This document shows, one piece after another, positions 385 to 31,377 of a DNA stretch of 64,000 nt; position 1 is the stretch's first letter; each line of letters begins with the position of its first letter. The stretch lies in the sequence record NC_014792.1; one strand, written 5' to 3'. The DNA is from Escherichia phage vB_EcoM_VR7. Below the pieces are notes generated by a model. The model ran no database searches, was not told where the DNA came from, and saw only the letters and a list, made by a program, of their open reading frames with translations. The translations under genes and the position numbers were made by a program.

Positions 385-990
385 GTGATTATTTCTAAAT
401 TTGTTGAAGTTCAAATACGAAATCATGCAAAGTGGTGGAGCGAATACTTAGGTAAACCTCTAACATACCATGATGTGATTTCTGTTCCAGTTGAACAAAT
501 GCCAGATAATAGTAATAAAAAGATTGAGTGTTCCTGTGATGAATGTGGGATACATTTTGAGCGAGGGATTCAGTTGCTTCGTCGCGTTGATAAACATTTA
601 TGTAAGGCATGTTCAAGAAAAGATATTGGACAAAAGAATGTTATTGCACAAGGCGGTGTGCCAAGACCATGGCAACGTGGTGAAAAACATCATAGCTGGA
701 AAGGCAATAAGCGTGAATTCTATTTGTACGCTCAACGTGTTCATGCATTGACAAGAGCAAAACATCTAAAGAATATTTGGTCAACATGGGAAAATGCAGA
801 TAAGATAGGAAAATGTGGGGAAGAAGGTGCATACCAACTTGACCATAAAGTTTCTATTGCGTATGGATTTTATAATCATATACCAGAGACTGTTATCGCT
901 TCGCTCAACAATTTAGAAATAGTCACTTGGGAATCTAATAGGTCCAAAGGAAAATCAAATAGTATTGACTTATGGGATATATTATCCTGA
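385..990 (+). CDS. HNH-family homing endonuclease (free-standing), N-terminal Cys4 zinc-finger-like motif
   Basis: C-terminal HNH-like motif (QLDHKVSIAYGF...NNLEIVTWESNRSKGKS); N-terminal CxxC...CxxC; GTG start with AAGGA SD ~7 nt upstream; sits between genes 18 and 19 where T4 has no gene. Confidence 0.6.
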   Translation: MIISKFVEVQIRNHAKWWSEYLGKPLTYHDVISVPVEQMPDNSNKKIECSCDECGIHFERGIQLLRRVDKHLCKACSRKDIGQKNVIAQGGVPRPWQRGEKHHSWKGNKREFYLYAQRVHALTRAKHLKNIWSTWENADKIGKCGEEGAYQLDHKVSIAYGFYNHIPETVIASLNNLEIVTWESNRSKGKSNSIDLWDILS

Positions 991-28242: not shown

Positions 28243-28280
28243 TGTATTTATACTAAAAAAGGGCCGAAGCCCTTTTGTTA
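28243..28280 (-). promoter_or_regulatory. Ligase terminator hairpin followed by a late promoter for alt
   Basis: gggcc-gaag-ccc hairpin with T-run, then minus-strand TATAAATA ~25 nt before the alt ATG. Confidence 0.6.
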
Positions 28281-29810
28281 TTTTAACCCCGTCTGTGACC
28301 AGTCGCCAAATACTTCTTCGAAAGTATCTGCCTTATCTTTATCGAATCTGAACCCTTTGATAATCGGAAGGAACAGTTTAACAGTATTATCTTTACGAGT
28401 TTCAGAAGTCAACCAACCATTACATTCACAGTCAGCAATCATTCCAACCAATTCACCTTTACGAGCCTTAATCATAAGAGCTTCGCGGTCCATTTCATGA
28501 CGCTCATCAATTGGGATAATAGCCCATTTCTTAGTCTTCGGGTCTTTGACTTGTGTTGTATCTTTGAAGCCTGACCCACAATTGGTAACAATTTTACCGC
28601 AAGAAGATTGAAGCACAACACCACCAATTTTATTTGGGTCTTTCTCGTGCTCATAGAATCCGATAATTTCCAAAGCGATGTCAATAACTTCTTTGAACTT
28701 GTACATATTCTTAGAACGCTTGTTTTCCCAAGGAGCTGCAGTGTTTTTAAGAATAATACCTTCGAGCTTTAAAGCAATATATTTCTTATAGATGGCTTTG
28801 GCTTCTTCGAGGTTATTAACCACGTGGTTTTCAATCAGAATCATGCGGTCGTAGCCATGAAGCACCACGTTATCTGCAATCATCTTCTCTAATACCGCGA
28901 ACCGCACATCATATTTCAGAGGGTTAAGAATTTTAACATCTGAATACACTTCAATCAACGGAACATAATCCCAGACCTGGAATTTCATGCCAGCTGCTTC
29001 AACCGCAGTGATAGTTCCTTTTAATGATTTGTTCGCTAGACCGTTTGACTTAGTACGAGATTCCGCAGATTCAATTTGAGTCTCGGCTTGCTCTGTATCA
29101 TCAAAAAGGAAGGCCAACCCATCATCCTGGACAACTGTTTTCTGTTCATGGTATACTAACTCACCATCAATCAAAACGCCCTCAGGATGTCTCTCACGCG
29201 CTTCACGGGTGGCTTCAATCAATTCCTTTTTAAGAAGGTCAAGCTTAAGATACTCATTTCCAGCGCGGGATAACAATCGAACATCATCCAACTCATCGCC
29301 ACGAACTTCTGCAAAACACCGGGCGCCATCGGCTTTCAATTGTGCAAAGGCCGGGAACTTAATGTTTTTAGCAATACCTGCTTCATCGTAAGAAGAAGCA
29401 AGCATCTGTGGCTGTTCAGGAATTAAACCTTTCCAAACTTTATTCGCAATCGATACGGATGCCCCACATTCCAGGTCACGCATCATCACACGACGCAGGA
29501 CTTCAACATCATCTTTTTTACCATCAGCAATATAGCCAGATAATTCCTCGATTGCCGCATTACCTGTTAATTTACGAGGGGCTAATGTAAATTCGATAAA
29601 GTCAAGCATATCACTTATATTCAACATGCCAAAGCTTTGAGTCGTTGTCCCAGGTTTTGGCCATTTCTTGATATAGAACTGAATGCCTTTGGAATATGTC
29701 AAACGATACACACGTTTAAGCGTTTCATTTTCAGAATACGATTCCAGGATAGCTTGTTTCTCTTTCGTAGAATCGGTTGCAGCAATTTCATTTAAAATAT
29801 CTAAAATCAT
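28278..29810 (-). CDS. 30: ATP-dependent DNA ligase gp30
   Basis: Very high similarity to T4 DNA ligase over the full length (MILDILNEIA...KQAILE, KFPAFAQLKADGARCFAEVRGDELDDVRLLSRAGNEY, ECECNGWL). Confidence 0.97.
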   Translation of the reverse strand: MILDILNEIAATDSTKEKQAILESYSENETLKRVYRLTYSKGIQFYIKKWPKPGTTTQSFGMLNISDMLDFIEFTLAPRKLTGNAAIEELSGYIADGKKDDVEVLRRVMMRDLECGASVSIANKVWKGLIPEQPQMLASSYDEAGIAKNIKFPAFAQLKADGARCFAEVRGDELDDVRLLSRAGNEYLKLDLLKKELIEATREARERHPEGVLIDGELVYHEQKTVVQDDGLAFLFDDTEQAETQIESAESRTKSNGLANKSLKGTITAVEAAGMKFQVWDYVPLIEVYSDVKILNPLKYDVRFAVLEKMIADNVVLHGYDRMILIENHVVNNLEEAKAIYKKYIALKLEGIILKNTAAPWENKRSKNMYKFKEVIDIALEIIGFYEHEKDPNKIGGVVLQSSCGKIVTNCGSGFKDTTQVKDPKTKKWAIIPIDERHEMDREALMIKARKGELVGMIADCECNGWLTSETRKDNTVKLFLPIIKGFRFDKDKADTFEEVFGDWSQTGLK

Positions 29811-29820
29811 TAATCACCTC

Positions 29821-30099
29821 TTAGTCGTTGGCTCTATTATATGCCACGTCTTCCAAAAGCAAATCCAGACGCTTATGATAAGTGAACACAAATTTCGTGG
29901 CACCGTCTGGTTTCATTTTAGTCATGAAGTGAACATAAATGAATCCTTGCTCAACACATTCACGCCAAACGGGATTATCTTTAGCCGGATTAATATCAAA
30001 CGAGTAATCATGATTCACATGACGAATAAACTGGTTAACATGACCATAATCCATCGTGGTGGTTGGACCACGGTCAGAAATAGTATGAACGACAAACAT
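29821..30099 (-). CDS. Hypothetical protein (30.1 position)
   Basis: 92 aa from internal ATG adjacent to the stop of the upstream gene. Confidence 0.4.
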   Translation of the reverse strand: MFVVHTISDRGPTTTMDYGHVNQFIRHVNHDYSFDINPAKDNPVWRECVEQGFIYVHFMTKMKPDGATKFVFTYHKRLDLLLEDVAYNRAND

Positions 30100-30100
30100 A

Positions 30101-30913
30101 TTAACCCCTTCCACAGGTCGGTTGATTATACCAGTATTCAATACCAGTACCTACGCCATATTGGTATGGATATGCTGGATTATATCCAGGAGTCCATGGC
30201 TGACCTGGCTGCCAGCCTTGTTGCATTTGTTGCTGAAGACGTCGAGTTTCACGAAACAGTTCTTCCAGTTTACGGAGTTCATCTGGTGTGAATTCTGGTT
30301 TGGTCGGTTCATCTTTGTGTTTCAGTTTAAGCTGTCCAGCAACATCGTCCCAATTAAAAACTTTGGAAGCTGTTTTAGGAATAGCATCACGTTCACCACG
30401 AGCCATCCAATAAACCGGAACTGCAAGGATTTCACTCGCATGGTCGCAATGGTGAGCAAGGTCATCAATATAACAAATGACATTATATTTGTCTTTTGCC
30501 TTCTGGAACAACTCCTCTTTAGAGGCTGTATGACCACACATCATAACTTCTTTAAACGCACCAGGGAACAAAGCATTCAGGTTGAATTGACGATTCAGGC
30601 GGGCGTCAATGGAATCACCCAGGGCTGTAACGGCCACAAAATCATATTGTTCTTTGAGGTTATTAATAACCCTTAACGCATCTGCATAAGGAGACAAATA
30701 ACGAATAAAATCCGAACAGTTATATTTCTCAATCAACTGTGCGCCCAACTCTTCATCACAATTGAACAGTTTGCCCGGGGTCACAAATTTTTCATCCTGA
30801 ATCATCTTAAGGATATGTTCCAGGGGTAAATTGTATTTTTGAGCGAAATAAGGCAAGCCAGATTGCCATGACAAACATACGCCATCAATGTCTGTTAAAA
30901 TAACGGGTTTCAT
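30101..30913 (-). CDS. HAD-like hydrolase-fold protein (30.2 position) with Q/P/Y-rich low-complexity C-terminal tail
   Basis: N-terminal ILTDIDGV motif (HAD motif I, DxDG); C-terminus QQQMQQGWQPGQPWTPGYNPAYPYQYG. Confidence 0.55.
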   Translation of the reverse strand: MKPVILTDIDGVCLSWQSGLPYFAQKYNLPLEHILKMIQDEKFVTPGKLFNCDEELGAQLIEKYNCSDFIRYLSPYADALRVINNLKEQYDFVAVTALGDSIDARLNRQFNLNALFPGAFKEVMMCGHTASKEELFQKAKDKYNVICYIDDLAHHCDHASEILAVPVYWMARGERDAIPKTASKVFNWDDVAGQLKLKHKDEPTKPEFTPDELRKLEELFRETRRLQQQMQQGWQPGQPWTPGYNPAYPYQYGVGTGIEYWYNQPTCGRG

Positions 30914-31377
30914 AATGCATCTCTCAATTGGTTAAGTATGTCAATAAATTCTTGTTCAGTCAATATTGTATCATGAACAGTAAGGTGGCTCGCCATCGAA
31001 TGCTTTAAAACTTTGCCCTTTGTAGCTTGTAATGCGTCGCGGAATCCTTTGTTTTGGAGAGCTGCTTCAAAATATGCACTTGTATACAACTCTTTCCATG
31101 CTGCAGAGTATCTTGAAAAGGGAATTCCAAGCCAGAAAAGCGTCCCACGGTCCGCAGCTCTTGCATAAGCTCTTCCAGTTTGTTGTGCGACCAGCCCGGA
31201 CATCCCAAATATACGTTTTTGTTGTTCATAATTTCTCACCTTGCACCCTTGTAGGAAGCCTTCAAGACCTCCAAACTGGATACCATCCATAACAAAAGGC
31301 CATTTGGCAAAGTTACTTAATGCGCATGATGGCCACGGGAAATTGCTTCTGATTTCTAACTCAGACATCTTTGACAC
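30910..31377 (-). CDS. NADAR/YbiA-like domain protein (30.3 position)
   Basis: 155 aa with SNFPWP...FWLGIPFSRYS-type motifs that resemble the NADAR (DUF1768) family; position matches T4 30.3. Confidence 0.55.
   Translation of the reverse strand: MSKMSELEIRSNFPWPSCALSNFAKWPFVMDGIQFGGLEGFLQGCKVRNYEQQKRIFGMSGLVAQQTGRAYARAADRGTLFWLGIPFSRYSAAWKELYTSAYFEAALQNKGFRDALQATKGKVLKHSMASHLTVHDTILTEQEFIDILNQLRDAL

What the first reader, a model, noticed from the sequence alone, without database searches (positions are those of the whole stretch)
30101..30260. Q/P/Y-rich low-complexity tail on the HAD-like protein
The 270-aa protein with the DxDG HAD motif ends in QQQMQQGWQPGQPWTPGYNPAYPYQYGVGTGIEYWYNQPTCGRG, an unusual low-complexity extension for a phage early enzyme.
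Basis: seen in the sequence. Interest (0 to 1): 0.3.

Follow-up and report, generated by a model that had tools for sequence, protein, structure and literature searches.

The report
Portable peptide motif on phosphatase tail
The odd Q/P/Y-rich end of this T4-type phage phosphatase is real: it is a flexible tail ending in a short, strongly conserved peptide motif that also occurs on unrelated phage proteins, so it looks like an undescribed address tag whose binding partner is still unknown.

Summary
The window is Escherichia phage vB_EcoM_VR25 (T4-like). ORF 30101-30913 (-) is the ortholog of T4 gene 30.2, two genes upstream of DNA ligase.

The last 44 residues are 73% Q/P/Y/G/W, the most extreme of 28,709 windows tested. 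The tail is not a frameshift: named orthologs (RB68, an Enterobacter phage) keep it in frame.

It is also not plain low complexity. It has three parts:
- a helix (residues 210-232);
- a predicted disordered aromatic/Pro/Gly/Gln linker;
- a conserved motif, GxGTG-IEY[WL]xxQPT.

The same motif turns up in unrelated phage proteins:
- a CCHC zinc-knuckle protein directly downstream of the DNA ligase of Salmonella phage 7-11;
- 73-81-aa proteins ending GTGIEYLxxQPTSK;
- a 90-aa protein ending GIEYLKNQPTC.

Synonymous sites differ between carriers, so selection acts on the peptide.

Best reading: a flexible tether carrying a portable docking motif. The partner is unknown. The T4 sliding clamp gp45 was my first candidate but is disfavoured. 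A gp45-tail fusion model showed no docking, and no gp45-like clamp was found in the 32 kb of phage 7-11 that I searched.

The core is an intact HAD phosphatase with a C1 cap; its substrate is unassigned. No paper in the searched library mentions the motif.

The parts
30101..30913 (-). Gene 30.2 ortholog (VR25_216), 270 aa: HAD phosphatase core plus C-terminal tail. The stop codon is at 30101-30103.
   Evidence: ORF list. GenBank annotation of the identical record. phrog_420 match, E 7.8e-80. Same gene order as T4: 30.3 - 30.2 - 30.1 - 30.
30314..30913 (-). HAD core, residues 1-200, a Rossmann-like fold with a C1 cap. Catalytic residues: D8 and D10 (motif I), T96 (II), K132 (III), D150 and D151 (IV).
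30218..30286 (-). Charged helix, residues 210-232 (TPDELRKLEELFRETRRLQQQMQ).
   Evidence: AF2 predicts helix 210-232 at pLDDT about 90 in the full-length model. The same helix appears when the tail is fused to gp45 instead. Helix-prone charged segments sit at this position in other tail classes.
30158..30217 (-). Disordered Q/P/G/W/Y-rich linker, residues 233-252 (QGWQPGQPWTPGYNPAYPYQY). It includes the WxxPG-like element seen in many orthologs.
   Evidence: pLDDT is 52-68 in the full-length model and below 45 in the fusion model. Length and sequence vary between genera. The recurrent W[KRVT]xPG element is visible.
30116..30157 (-). Conserved motif, residues 253-266: GVGTGIEYWYNQPT. This is the portable module.
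   Evidence: In alignment A5, E is invariant and Y, P and T are at least 90% conserved. AF2 puts a one-turn helix at 259-262. The same motif occurs in phage 7-11 gp042 and relatives and at the C-terminus of small unrelated proteins. Differences between carriers lie at wobble positions.
30104..30115 (-). Last four residues, CGRG.
   Evidence: Read directly from the sequence. The residues after QPT vary between lineages: GGQGGN, AKTTIGKA, SGDNIFQGAF, SK.
29821..30099 (-). Gene 30.1 ortholog (DUF3045). Its ATG lies one base after the 30.2 stop codon.
   Evidence: Pfam PF11243, E 5e-18. Annotation. Sequence. In one lineage the 30.2 core is fused to this domain (P0022).
28278..29810 (-). DNA ligase, gene 30 ortholog.
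   Evidence: Annotation of the identical record. 25% identity to the phage 7-11 ligase over the nucleotidyltransferase domain.
30910..31377 (-). Gene 30.3 ortholog. Its stop codon overlaps the 30.2 start codon.
   Evidence: Pfam Phage_30_3, E 4e-64. ORF coordinates.

Best explanation
gp30.2 is a catalytically intact HAD-family phosphatase. Its C-terminal 70 residues form a tether: one helix, then an intrinsically disordered aromatic/Pro/Gly/Gln-rich linker, then a short linear motif (GxGTG-IEY[WL]xxQPT). I propose that the motif is a portable docking peptide that recruits whatever protein carries it to one common partner in the infected cell. The same peptide sits on unrelated proteins of phages that share no replication machinery with T4, so the partner is more likely host-encoded or generic (for example a host hub protein, or DNA itself) than T4-specific. 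Shown here: the composition, the predicted disorder, conservation of the motif against a variable linker, its recurrence in other protein families, and peptide-level selection. Inferred: that the motif binds a partner, and what that partner is.
For: (1) The tail is kept in frame in orthologs from several genera. The linker varies in length and sequence while the motif is conserved: RB68 GGIEYLYNRPT, Enterobacter phage GTGIEYLNRQPT, VR25 GTGIEYWYNQPT.
(2) AF2 gives pLDDT 89-98 (mostly above 94) for the core and 52-68 for residues 233-270, with a single helical turn on IEYW. This is typical of a motif that folds on binding.
(3) A degenerate DNA scan for GIEYxxxQPT found the identical 10-mer GIEYWYNQPT in Salmonella phage 7-11 gp042, a small CCHC zinc-knuckle protein unrelated to HAD enzymes. 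Eight of ten members of that family keep [GD]IEYW[YR]NQPT. One member has PYGVGTGIEYWYNQPTS, against QYGVGTGIEYWYNQPTC in VR25.
(4) The coding DNA of the motif differs at 9 of 45 bases between VR25 and that protein, at third codon positions. This points to selection on the peptide rather than recent DNA transfer.
(5) Further carriers all bear the motif at the extreme C-terminus: five 73-81-aa proteins ending GTGIEYLxxQPTSK, and a 90-aa protein ending ETGIEYLKNQPTC.
(6) Relatives of 7-11 gp042 in other phages match only its N-terminal 69 residues, so the motif-bearing half is an appended module there too.
(7) The arrangement (a divergent unstructured linker plus a short conserved terminal epitope) is the one documented for the clamp-binding tails of T4 gp55, gp33 and gp43 (PMC2988020; VR25 sequences).
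Against: - No partner was identified and no binding was tested.
- The one partner I could test in silico, gp45, gave no predicted docking.
- About half of the family representatives have no long tail, and other long-tail classes end differently: DLRAYYG, SALRASF, PDYVLLNKVTANDSD. The motif is therefore dispensable for the enzyme.
- Some T4-like phages have mutated the core of the motif: GIEYLYNRPT has become DAGYF-NRLT.
- In the gp042 family the motif is internal and close to the zinc knuckle, so there it could be part of a small fold rather than a free peptide.
- Aromatic-rich disordered tails can also act by self-association, without a specific partner.
Confidence: 0.5

Rival explanations
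1. The motif is a sliding-clamp (gp45) binding peptide, like the C-termini of T4 DNA polymerase gp43, late sigma gp55 and co-activator gp33. It would tether the phosphatase to the replisome.
For: IEYWY has the same pattern (aliphatic, acidic, aromatic, hydrophobic, aromatic) as VR25 gp55 LDFLY and gp33 LDFLL and as distant gp43 tails such as SLEYFFG and SIEDFFT. A regular expression for this pattern in the last 22 residues hit 7 of 255 six-frame ORFs. Four of the seven were gp43, gp55, gp33 and gp30.2. Clamp-binding epitopes also sit on divergent unstructured linkers (PMC2988020).
Against: An AF2 model of gp45-(GGGGS)5-tail folded gp45 at pLDDT 90-97 but left the motif at pLDDT 38-44, lower than in the free protein. 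No positive control was run, and only a gp45 monomer was modelled. The same motif is conserved in phage 7-11-type proteins. The 7-11 replication region (30-62 kb) encodes a family-A polymerase, and a 42-sequence gp45 HMM that recovers VR25 gp45 at E 2e-87 finds no clamp there. The conserved QPT half of the motif has no counterpart in gp43, gp55 or gp33.
Confidence: 0.07
2. The tail is a prion-like 'stickers and spacers' domain. The aromatic residues and the IEYWYNQ segment drive homotypic or heterotypic self-association (condensates or reversible cross-beta contacts), which concentrates the carriers together.
For: Extreme Q/G/P/Y/W composition. No stable fold is predicted. In the gp042 family the motif is flanked by G/S/Y/Q-rich stretches such as GYGVSYGQGKGTGSAGAG. 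A motif that pairs with itself would be unusually constrained, which fits its near identity across families.
Against: In the 73-90-aa carriers the motif follows an ordinary helical domain with little aromatic-rich sequence. In JS98-size genomes the 30.2 tail is cut down to about 20 residues ending AVEWIARG. So the sticky linker is dispensable while a motif-like end is kept. Nothing was tested experimentally.
Confidence: 0.2
3. The tail is a degradation tag. A disordered initiation region plus a terminal recognition motif would give timed removal of early proteins by a host AAA+ protease.
For: Most carriers have the motif at or near the C-terminus, after a disordered segment. All carriers lie among early or non-structural genes.
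Against: The motif does not resemble the ClpX, ClpA or SspB tags I know of (my own knowledge, not tested). It is internal in the gp042 family, with 20-45 residues after it. The residues after QPT vary freely. T4-like phages, including VR25, encode a putative Lon inhibitor, PinA.
Confidence: 0.1
4. The motif binds the product of the neighbouring gene 30.1 (DUF3045), forming a 30.2-30.1 complex.
For: The 30.1 start codon lies one base after the 30.2 stop codon. In one lineage the tail-less 30.2 core is fused directly to the DUF3045 domain (P0022, 302 aa). A natural deletion variant keeps the last 20 tail residues in frame immediately upstream of 30.1 (P0129).
Against: No DUF3045 protein lies next to the motif carriers in phage 7-11 or in the metagenomic contigs examined. 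Tail-less orthologs also sit beside 30.1-type genes.
Confidence: 0.08
5. The tail is an artefact (frameshift or read-through) or a neutral low-complexity extension with no function.
For: Half of the family lacks a long tail. The linker evolves fast.
Against: The deposited VR25 genome has the identical sequence. Orthologs in four or more genera keep the same frame and motif. The motif is conserved with synonymous changes and recurs in other families.
Confidence: 0.03

Closest known systems
Sliding-clamp-binding C-terminal tails of T4 gp43, gp55 and gp33
   Same: A short hydrophobic and acidic motif at or near the C-terminus, on a divergent unstructured linker, shared by otherwise unrelated proteins (PMC2988020; VR25 sequences). 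The IEYWY core resembles LDFLY and LDFLL.
   Different: The motif is longer and has an invariant QPT half that the clamp binders lack. No docking on gp45 was predicted. It occurs in phage 7-11, where no gp45-type clamp was found in the 32 kb searched.
E. coli SSB C-terminal tail: G/Q/P-rich disordered linker plus the acidic tip DDDIPF (from my own knowledge)
   Same: A Gly/Gln/Pro/Trp-rich disordered linker that ends in a short docking peptide for partner proteins.
   Different: The tip sequence is unrelated and not acidic. The body here is an enzyme, not an OB fold. No evidence of DNA binding was obtained.
Encapsulin cargo-loading peptides and similar portable C-terminal targeting tags (from my own knowledge)
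   Same: One short C-terminal peptide, preceded by a flexible linker, appended to unrelated proteins.
   Different: There is no evidence of packaging. The carriers are encoded among early or non-structural genes. The capsid proteins of the carrier phages are not expected to be closely related (not tested).
5'(3')-deoxyribonucleotidases (NT5C/NT5M type HAD enzymes) and the deoxyribonucleotidase-like protein 3bwv
   Different: No Pfam or NCBIfam match. Generic subfamily-IA HAD hydrolases score as high or higher. Those enzymes have no such tail.
WW domain beta2-beta3 (GRVYYFNHIT) and choline-binding repeats (GTWYYLNSSG), recalled from memory
   Same: The pattern G-x-x-Y-[YW]-x-N-x-x-T of an aromatic beta-hairpin.
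   Different: No Pfam WW or cell-wall-binding hit even at E up to 10. No second Trp-Pro element. AF2 predicts no hairpin.

Membership tests
T4 gene 30.2 orthologous group (phrog_420) | Sequence similarity over the core, and a position between 30.3 and 30.1/ligase | tested here: met
   phrog_420, E 7.8e-80. 67-68% identity to Tequatrovirus orthologs. Gene order 30.3 - 30.2 - 30.1 - 30 in VR25 and RB68.
HAD superfamily phosphatase | Motif I DxD, motif II Thr/Ser, motif III Lys, motif IV DD | tested here: met
   D8, D10, K132, D150 and D151 are invariant and T96 is nearly invariant across 106 sequences.
HAD superfamily phosphatase | Rossmann-like core fold with a cap inserted after motif I (C1 type) | tested here: met
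HAD superfamily phosphatase | Mg-dependent phosphoryl transfer activity | not testable with these tools
   Needs an enzyme assay.
5'(3')-deoxyribonucleotidase family (NT5C) | Significant match to the family profile or sequences | tested here: not met
   No Pfam family at E up to 0.1. phmmer and profile hits to 2jao reach only E 0.31 and 0.24. The fold similarity is no better than to other HAD-IA enzymes.
T4 polynucleotide kinase 3'-phosphatase type HAD | Profile similarity beyond motif I | tested here: not met
gp45 sliding-clamp-binding tails | Hydrophobic/acidic motif near the C-terminus on an unstructured linker | tested here: met
   IEYWY lies 8 residues from the end. Tail pLDDT is 52-68.
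gp45 sliding-clamp-binding tails | Docks onto the clamp | tested here: inconclusive
   The AF2 fusion left the motif at pLDDT 38-44. This is negative, but there was no positive control, gp45 was modelled as a monomer, and no coordinates were available.
gp45 sliding-clamp-binding tails | Confined to phages that encode the clamp | tested here: not met
   The motif is conserved in phage 7-11 gp042 and relatives. No gp45-like ORF was found in 7-11 positions 30-62 kb. The rest of that genome was not searched.
WW domain | Match to the Pfam WW profile; two Trp about 20 residues apart and a C-terminal Pro | tested here: not met
   No hit at E up to 10 for two tails and for gp042.
Simple low-complexity or repeat region | Biased composition without position-specific conservation; DNA repeats | tested here: not met
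   The composition is biased. However, E is invariant and Y, P and T are at least 90% conserved in the motif, and no tandem repeat was found.

The most novel reading that the evidence does not exclude
GxGTG-IEY[WL]xxQPT is a previously unrecognised phage 'address tag'. It is a portable peptide that virulent phages of different families append to diverse early proteins: a phosphatase, a zinc-knuckle protein beside DNA ligase, and several very small proteins. All would then dock onto one host hub, or onto DNA ends, during takeover. This would define a new interaction node comparable to the clamp-binding or SSB-tip systems.
Probability: 0.3. Interest if true: 0.75.

Novelty: new variant of a known kind. 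Interest (0 to 1): 0.5.

Why it matters
Gene 30.2 is one of many conserved T4-family genes with no known function. This work splits it into two testable parts: an intact HAD phosphatase and a tethered peptide motif.

The motif is also carried by unrelated proteins in other phages. Finding its partner could therefore reveal a shared host-takeover or DNA-metabolism hub, and would give a handle on several unnamed proteins at once.

Two of the carriers lie close to a DNA ligase gene. That gives a concrete lead to test: recruitment to sites of nick processing or replication. If the partner turns out to be trivial, or the tail only aggregates, the finding remains a useful annotation of a very common phage protein.

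Tried and rejected
- **Frameshift or assembly artefact.** Rejected. The deposited genome is identical, and orthologs keep the frame.
- **Tandem repeat expansion.** None found.
- **gp45 clamp binding.** This was my first hypothesis, from the resemblance to LDFLY/LDFLL and a regular-expression scan. It is now disfavoured by the AF2 gp45-tail fusion and by the motif's presence in phage 7-11, where no gp45-like clamp was found in the 32 kb searched.
- **Co-variation of tail class with the phage's own gp43 and gp55 termini.** None seen. gp43 and gp55 termini are nearly constant while 30.2 tails switch class. The Erwinia phage Cronus tail end ANLPIITG does not copy its gp43 (SLFDMFDM) or gp55 (LDFLYEDDN).
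- **Known domain in the tail.** Pfam at E up to 10, NCBIfam and PDB sequence searches gave nothing but chance hits.
- **Mimicry of a host protein.** An exact scan for IEYWYNQPT in one genome from each of 100,044 bacterial and archaeal species gave 0 hits. I did not run looser patterns because the expected chance hits were too many.
- **Profile search of 1.84 billion representatives with the 34-position motif profile.** Only one hit passed E 0.001 (P0116). The 30.2 proteins themselves fell below threshold, so this search is insensitive for so short a motif.
- **DUF3045 or other shared neighbours next to the other carriers.** None found.
- **Isolate, plasmid or E. coli sources for the small carriers.** None found.
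- **Literature.** No paper holds gp30.2 or the motif strings. A 2026 preprint on a dNMP-sensing HAD defence system does not mention this gene.
- **Polynucleotide-kinase-type phosphatase.** Only motif I aligns.

Full report

The ORF at 30101..30913 (minus strand) encodes 270 residues and ends exactly as quoted. A tblastn search shows the window is Escherichia phage vB_EcoM_VR25 (Gaprivervirus, T4-like) at 100% identity. The gene is annotated there as VR25_216, 'similar to T4 gp30.2'. It lies in the conserved run 30.3 - 30.2 - 30.1 - 30 (DNA ligase). The 30.3 stop codon overlaps its start, and the 30.1 ATG lies one base after its stop.

The composition is exceptional. Q+P+Y+G+W make up 72.7% of the last 44 residues. 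That is the highest value among 28,709 windows from 255 ORFs of this phage, whose mean is 19%. There is no DNA tandem repeat and only a modest GC rise.

**The tail is not a frameshift**

The tail is kept in frame in named isolates:
- RB68 30.2 ends ...WRTPGFNPYNLYHPYQTHPFQTWNYIKPGGIEYLYNRPTGGDNIFQGAF.
- An Enterobacter Karamvirus ortholog ends ...KKWVNPGPSDYKPWYEHPGNLPVHRPNFGIGTGIEYLNRQPTAKTTIGKV.

Of 1,437 phage records with a match, 863 match at least 80% of the query, so the match runs beyond the roughly 200-aa core.

**The core enzyme**

Pfam and NCBIfam give no family. PHROGs files the protein in phrog_420, function unknown.

A 106-sequence alignment shows that the four HAD motifs are intact: D8, D10, K132, D150 and D151 are invariant and T96 is nearly invariant. 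AF2 models residues 1-200 at pLDDT 89-98 (mostly above 94), with a helical cap between strand 1 and strand 2.

Structure searches place it among subfamily-IA, C1-cap HAD hydrolases:
- Foldseek hits include cytosolic and mitochondrial 5'(3')-deoxyribonucleotidases.

At sequence level those enzymes are the best PDB relatives, but only at E 0.2-0.3. The T4 polynucleotide-kinase phosphatase type aligns only at motif I. I therefore call the core an intact HAD phosphatase. A deoxyribonucleotidase-like substrate is a lead, not a finding.

**Anatomy of the tail**

Across 115 cluster representatives the core is constant and the C-terminus is modular:
- 56 are short (about 200-235 aa).
- 18 end in [ILVT]E[YW][LWY]xx[QR]P[T].
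- 11 end in L[RK]A[YF][YF].
- 8 carry a [DE]W..P[RK]xT variant, often with a further extension.
- 22 have other long tails.

In VR25 the tail has four parts:
- a charged helix (residues 210-232, pLDDT about 90);
- a linker (233-252);
- the motif GVGTGIEYWYNQPT (253-266);
- the last four residues, CGRG.

AF2 gives residues 233-270 a pLDDT of 52-68, with one helical turn on EYWY. In an alignment of 18 tails the linker is gappy and variable, while E is invariant and Y, P and T are at least 90% conserved. An upstream W[KRVT]xPG element recurs at variable distance. This is the signature of a short linear motif on a disordered tether, not of featureless low complexity.

**First hypothesis: the sliding clamp**

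The core IEYWY resembles the clamp-binding ends of VR25 gp55 (...GDLDFLYGTSI), gp33 (...TNTLDFLL) and gp43 (...TLFDMFDF). It also resembles more distant gp43 tails such as SLEYFFG and SIEDFFT. The T4 late-transcription review describes those epitopes as hydrophobic and acidic C-termini on divergent unstructured linkers (PMC2988020). A pattern scan of the last 22 residues of 255 ORFs hit seven, four of them gp43, gp55, gp33 and gp30.2.

Two tests went against this hypothesis:
- An AF2 model of VR25 gp45 joined by (GGGGS)5 to tail residues 196-270, with a 44-row alignment that included paired sequences, folded gp45 at pLDDT 90-97 but left the motif at 38-44. I had no second job for a positive control, so this result is weak on its own.
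- The motif occurs in phage 7-11, where no gp45-type clamp was found in the part searched (next section).

**The motif is portable**

A degenerate DNA scan of IMG/VR for GIEYxxxQPT returned 27 places. Ten are T4-like 30.2 genes. Two are a 134-aa ORF of Salmonella phage 7-11 (Grimontviridae, phiEco32-like) that reads ...GGGIPWRNPGAGGIEYWYNQPTAIGGQ.... This is gp042, which overlaps the 3' end of the ATP-dependent DNA ligase gene gp043.

Findings on the gp042 family:
- Its relatives in other phages match only the N-terminal 69 residues.
- A profile search of 1.84 billion representatives found one more member, P0116, with PYGVGTGIEYWYNQPTS. That is 15 of 16 residues identical to VR25.
- Eight of ten family members keep [GD]IEYW[YR]NQPT, placed 8-30 residues after a CxxC...HxC knuckle.
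- The coding DNA differs from VR25 at 9 of 45 positions, at wobble sites. Selection is therefore on the peptide.

On the clamp question, the 7-11 replication region encodes a family-A polymerase and a primase-helicase. A gp45 HMM that recovers VR25 gp45 at E 2e-87 finds nothing there. The two ligases are only 25% identical.

A word-index search with a longer tail alignment then found further carriers, all with the motif at the extreme C-terminus:
- five 73-81-aa proteins ending GTGIEYL[KRS][RH]QPTSK;
- a 90-aa protein ending ETGIEYLKNQPTC, on a contig with NAMPT, NAD synthase, guanylate kinase and RtcB genes;
- a natural deletion product in which the N-terminus of gp30.7 is fused in frame to the last 20 residues of a T4-type 30.2 tail, followed by 30.1 and ligase.

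An exact scan of one genome from each of 100,044 bacterial and archaeal species for IEYWYNQPT found nothing. The peptide is therefore not copied from a cellular protein, at least not exactly, and it is not common in prophages. No other ORF in the 99 kb of VR25 or the 32 kb of 7-11 that I examined carries it.

**Interpretation**

The evidence supports a flexible tether that carries a portable recognition peptide. I commit to heterotypic docking onto a partner common to these phages (confidence 0.5). That partner is most likely host-encoded or generic, because the carrier phages do not share replication proteins. In two independent phage lineages a carrier lies close to a ligase gene, immediately downstream in 7-11 and one gene away in VR25, which hints at DNA-end or replication-site recruitment. 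With two cases this remains a hint.

The rivals are:
- self-association of an aromatic-rich prion-like tail (0.2);
- a degradation tag (0.1);
- binding to the neighbouring gp30.1, suggested by a 30.2-DUF3045 fusion protein (0.08);
- clamp binding (0.07);
- no function (0.03).

Several facts argue that the motif is an accessory module and is not required for catalysis. Half the family lacks a long tail. Other tail classes exist. Some T4-like phages carry an in-frame 3-nt deletion plus substitutions that turn GIEYLYNRPT into DAGYF-NRLT.

**Novelty**

Searches of the paper library for gp30.2 and for the motif strings returned nothing. The general kind, a short docking motif on a disordered tail, is well known. 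This particular motif, its spread over unrelated phage proteins, and its presence on a very widespread T4-family gene appear to be undescribed.

Noticed in passing
P0022 (302 aa; tail shown): In one lineage a tail-less 30.2 core runs straight into the DUF3045 (gene 30.1) domain as a single ORF. This is either a gene fusion suggesting that 30.2 and 30.1 work together, or a lost stop codon.
   Followed up: partly
L209:270-482 (P0129): A natural deletion in a T4-like contig fuses the N-terminus of gp30.7 (PF06919) in frame to the last 20 residues of the 30.2 tail (GIEYLYNRPTGGDNIFQGAF). Genes 30.1 and ligase follow directly.
   Followed up: partly
L025:3200-3360 and L026:3200-3354: Some T4-like contigs carry an in-frame 3-nt deletion plus substitutions that change GIEYLYNRPT to DAGYF-NRLT. 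They keep the extreme C-terminus SGDNIFQGAF, which may be a second conserved element of the T4-type tail.
   Followed up: partly
L027-L032: In 170.5-kb E. coli phage genomes (JS98-sized) the 30.2 ortholog is 212 aa. Its tail is only about 20 residues long and ends AVEW[IV]ARG, which looks like a minimal version of the IEYW...GRG ending.
   Followed up: no
L195-L199, L203, L204: A 340-375-aa protein family from freshwater viral contigs (GC about 55%, one contig 135 kb) contains DVEYWYNQPTCRR internally, in what looks like an ordered region. It could be a chance 8-mer match or another use of the motif.
   Followed up: no
L201:1-456 minus strand: A 152-aa ORF on a 3-kb, GC 36% contig begins MSVNQLEYWYNQPTQTGGST. 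Here the motif is at the N-terminus, and the neighbours look like structural and membrane proteins.
   Followed up: partly
L168:4253-5143: A 295-aa protein of phrog_38413 (function unknown), on a 44.5-kb viral contig, ends ...KIEDWSGIEYINYQPTE. This may be another C-terminal instance or a chance match.
   Followed up: partly
window 385-990 (+): This ORF ends ...SNSIDLWDILS. It was the only other plausible gene among 255 ORFs to match the clamp-tail-like C-terminal pattern. I did not determine what it is.
   Followed up: no
P0036-P0042, P0048, P0057, P0059: An Erwinia-phage-related tail class adds a second terminal element: PDYVLLNKVTANDSD, EYALLNLKVANDE or FDFLTLKAANDDSNSL. From memory, this recalls both the gp55 ending LDFLYEAND and the ssrA/SspB tag AANDENY. 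Not tested.
   Followed up: no
L207:898-1161: The gene after the small motif carrier P0128 encodes a 78-aa protein with two CxxCxGxG repeats (DnaJ-type zinc finger; PF27659).
   Followed up: no
P0063, P0065, L052, L090: In Yersinia phage phiR1-RT-like genomes the 30.2 core carries a different C-terminal extension of about 120 residues that looks folded (...KHPKGFGWVYCSNRKNLEEEYTKRFL) instead of the disordered tail.
   Followed up: no
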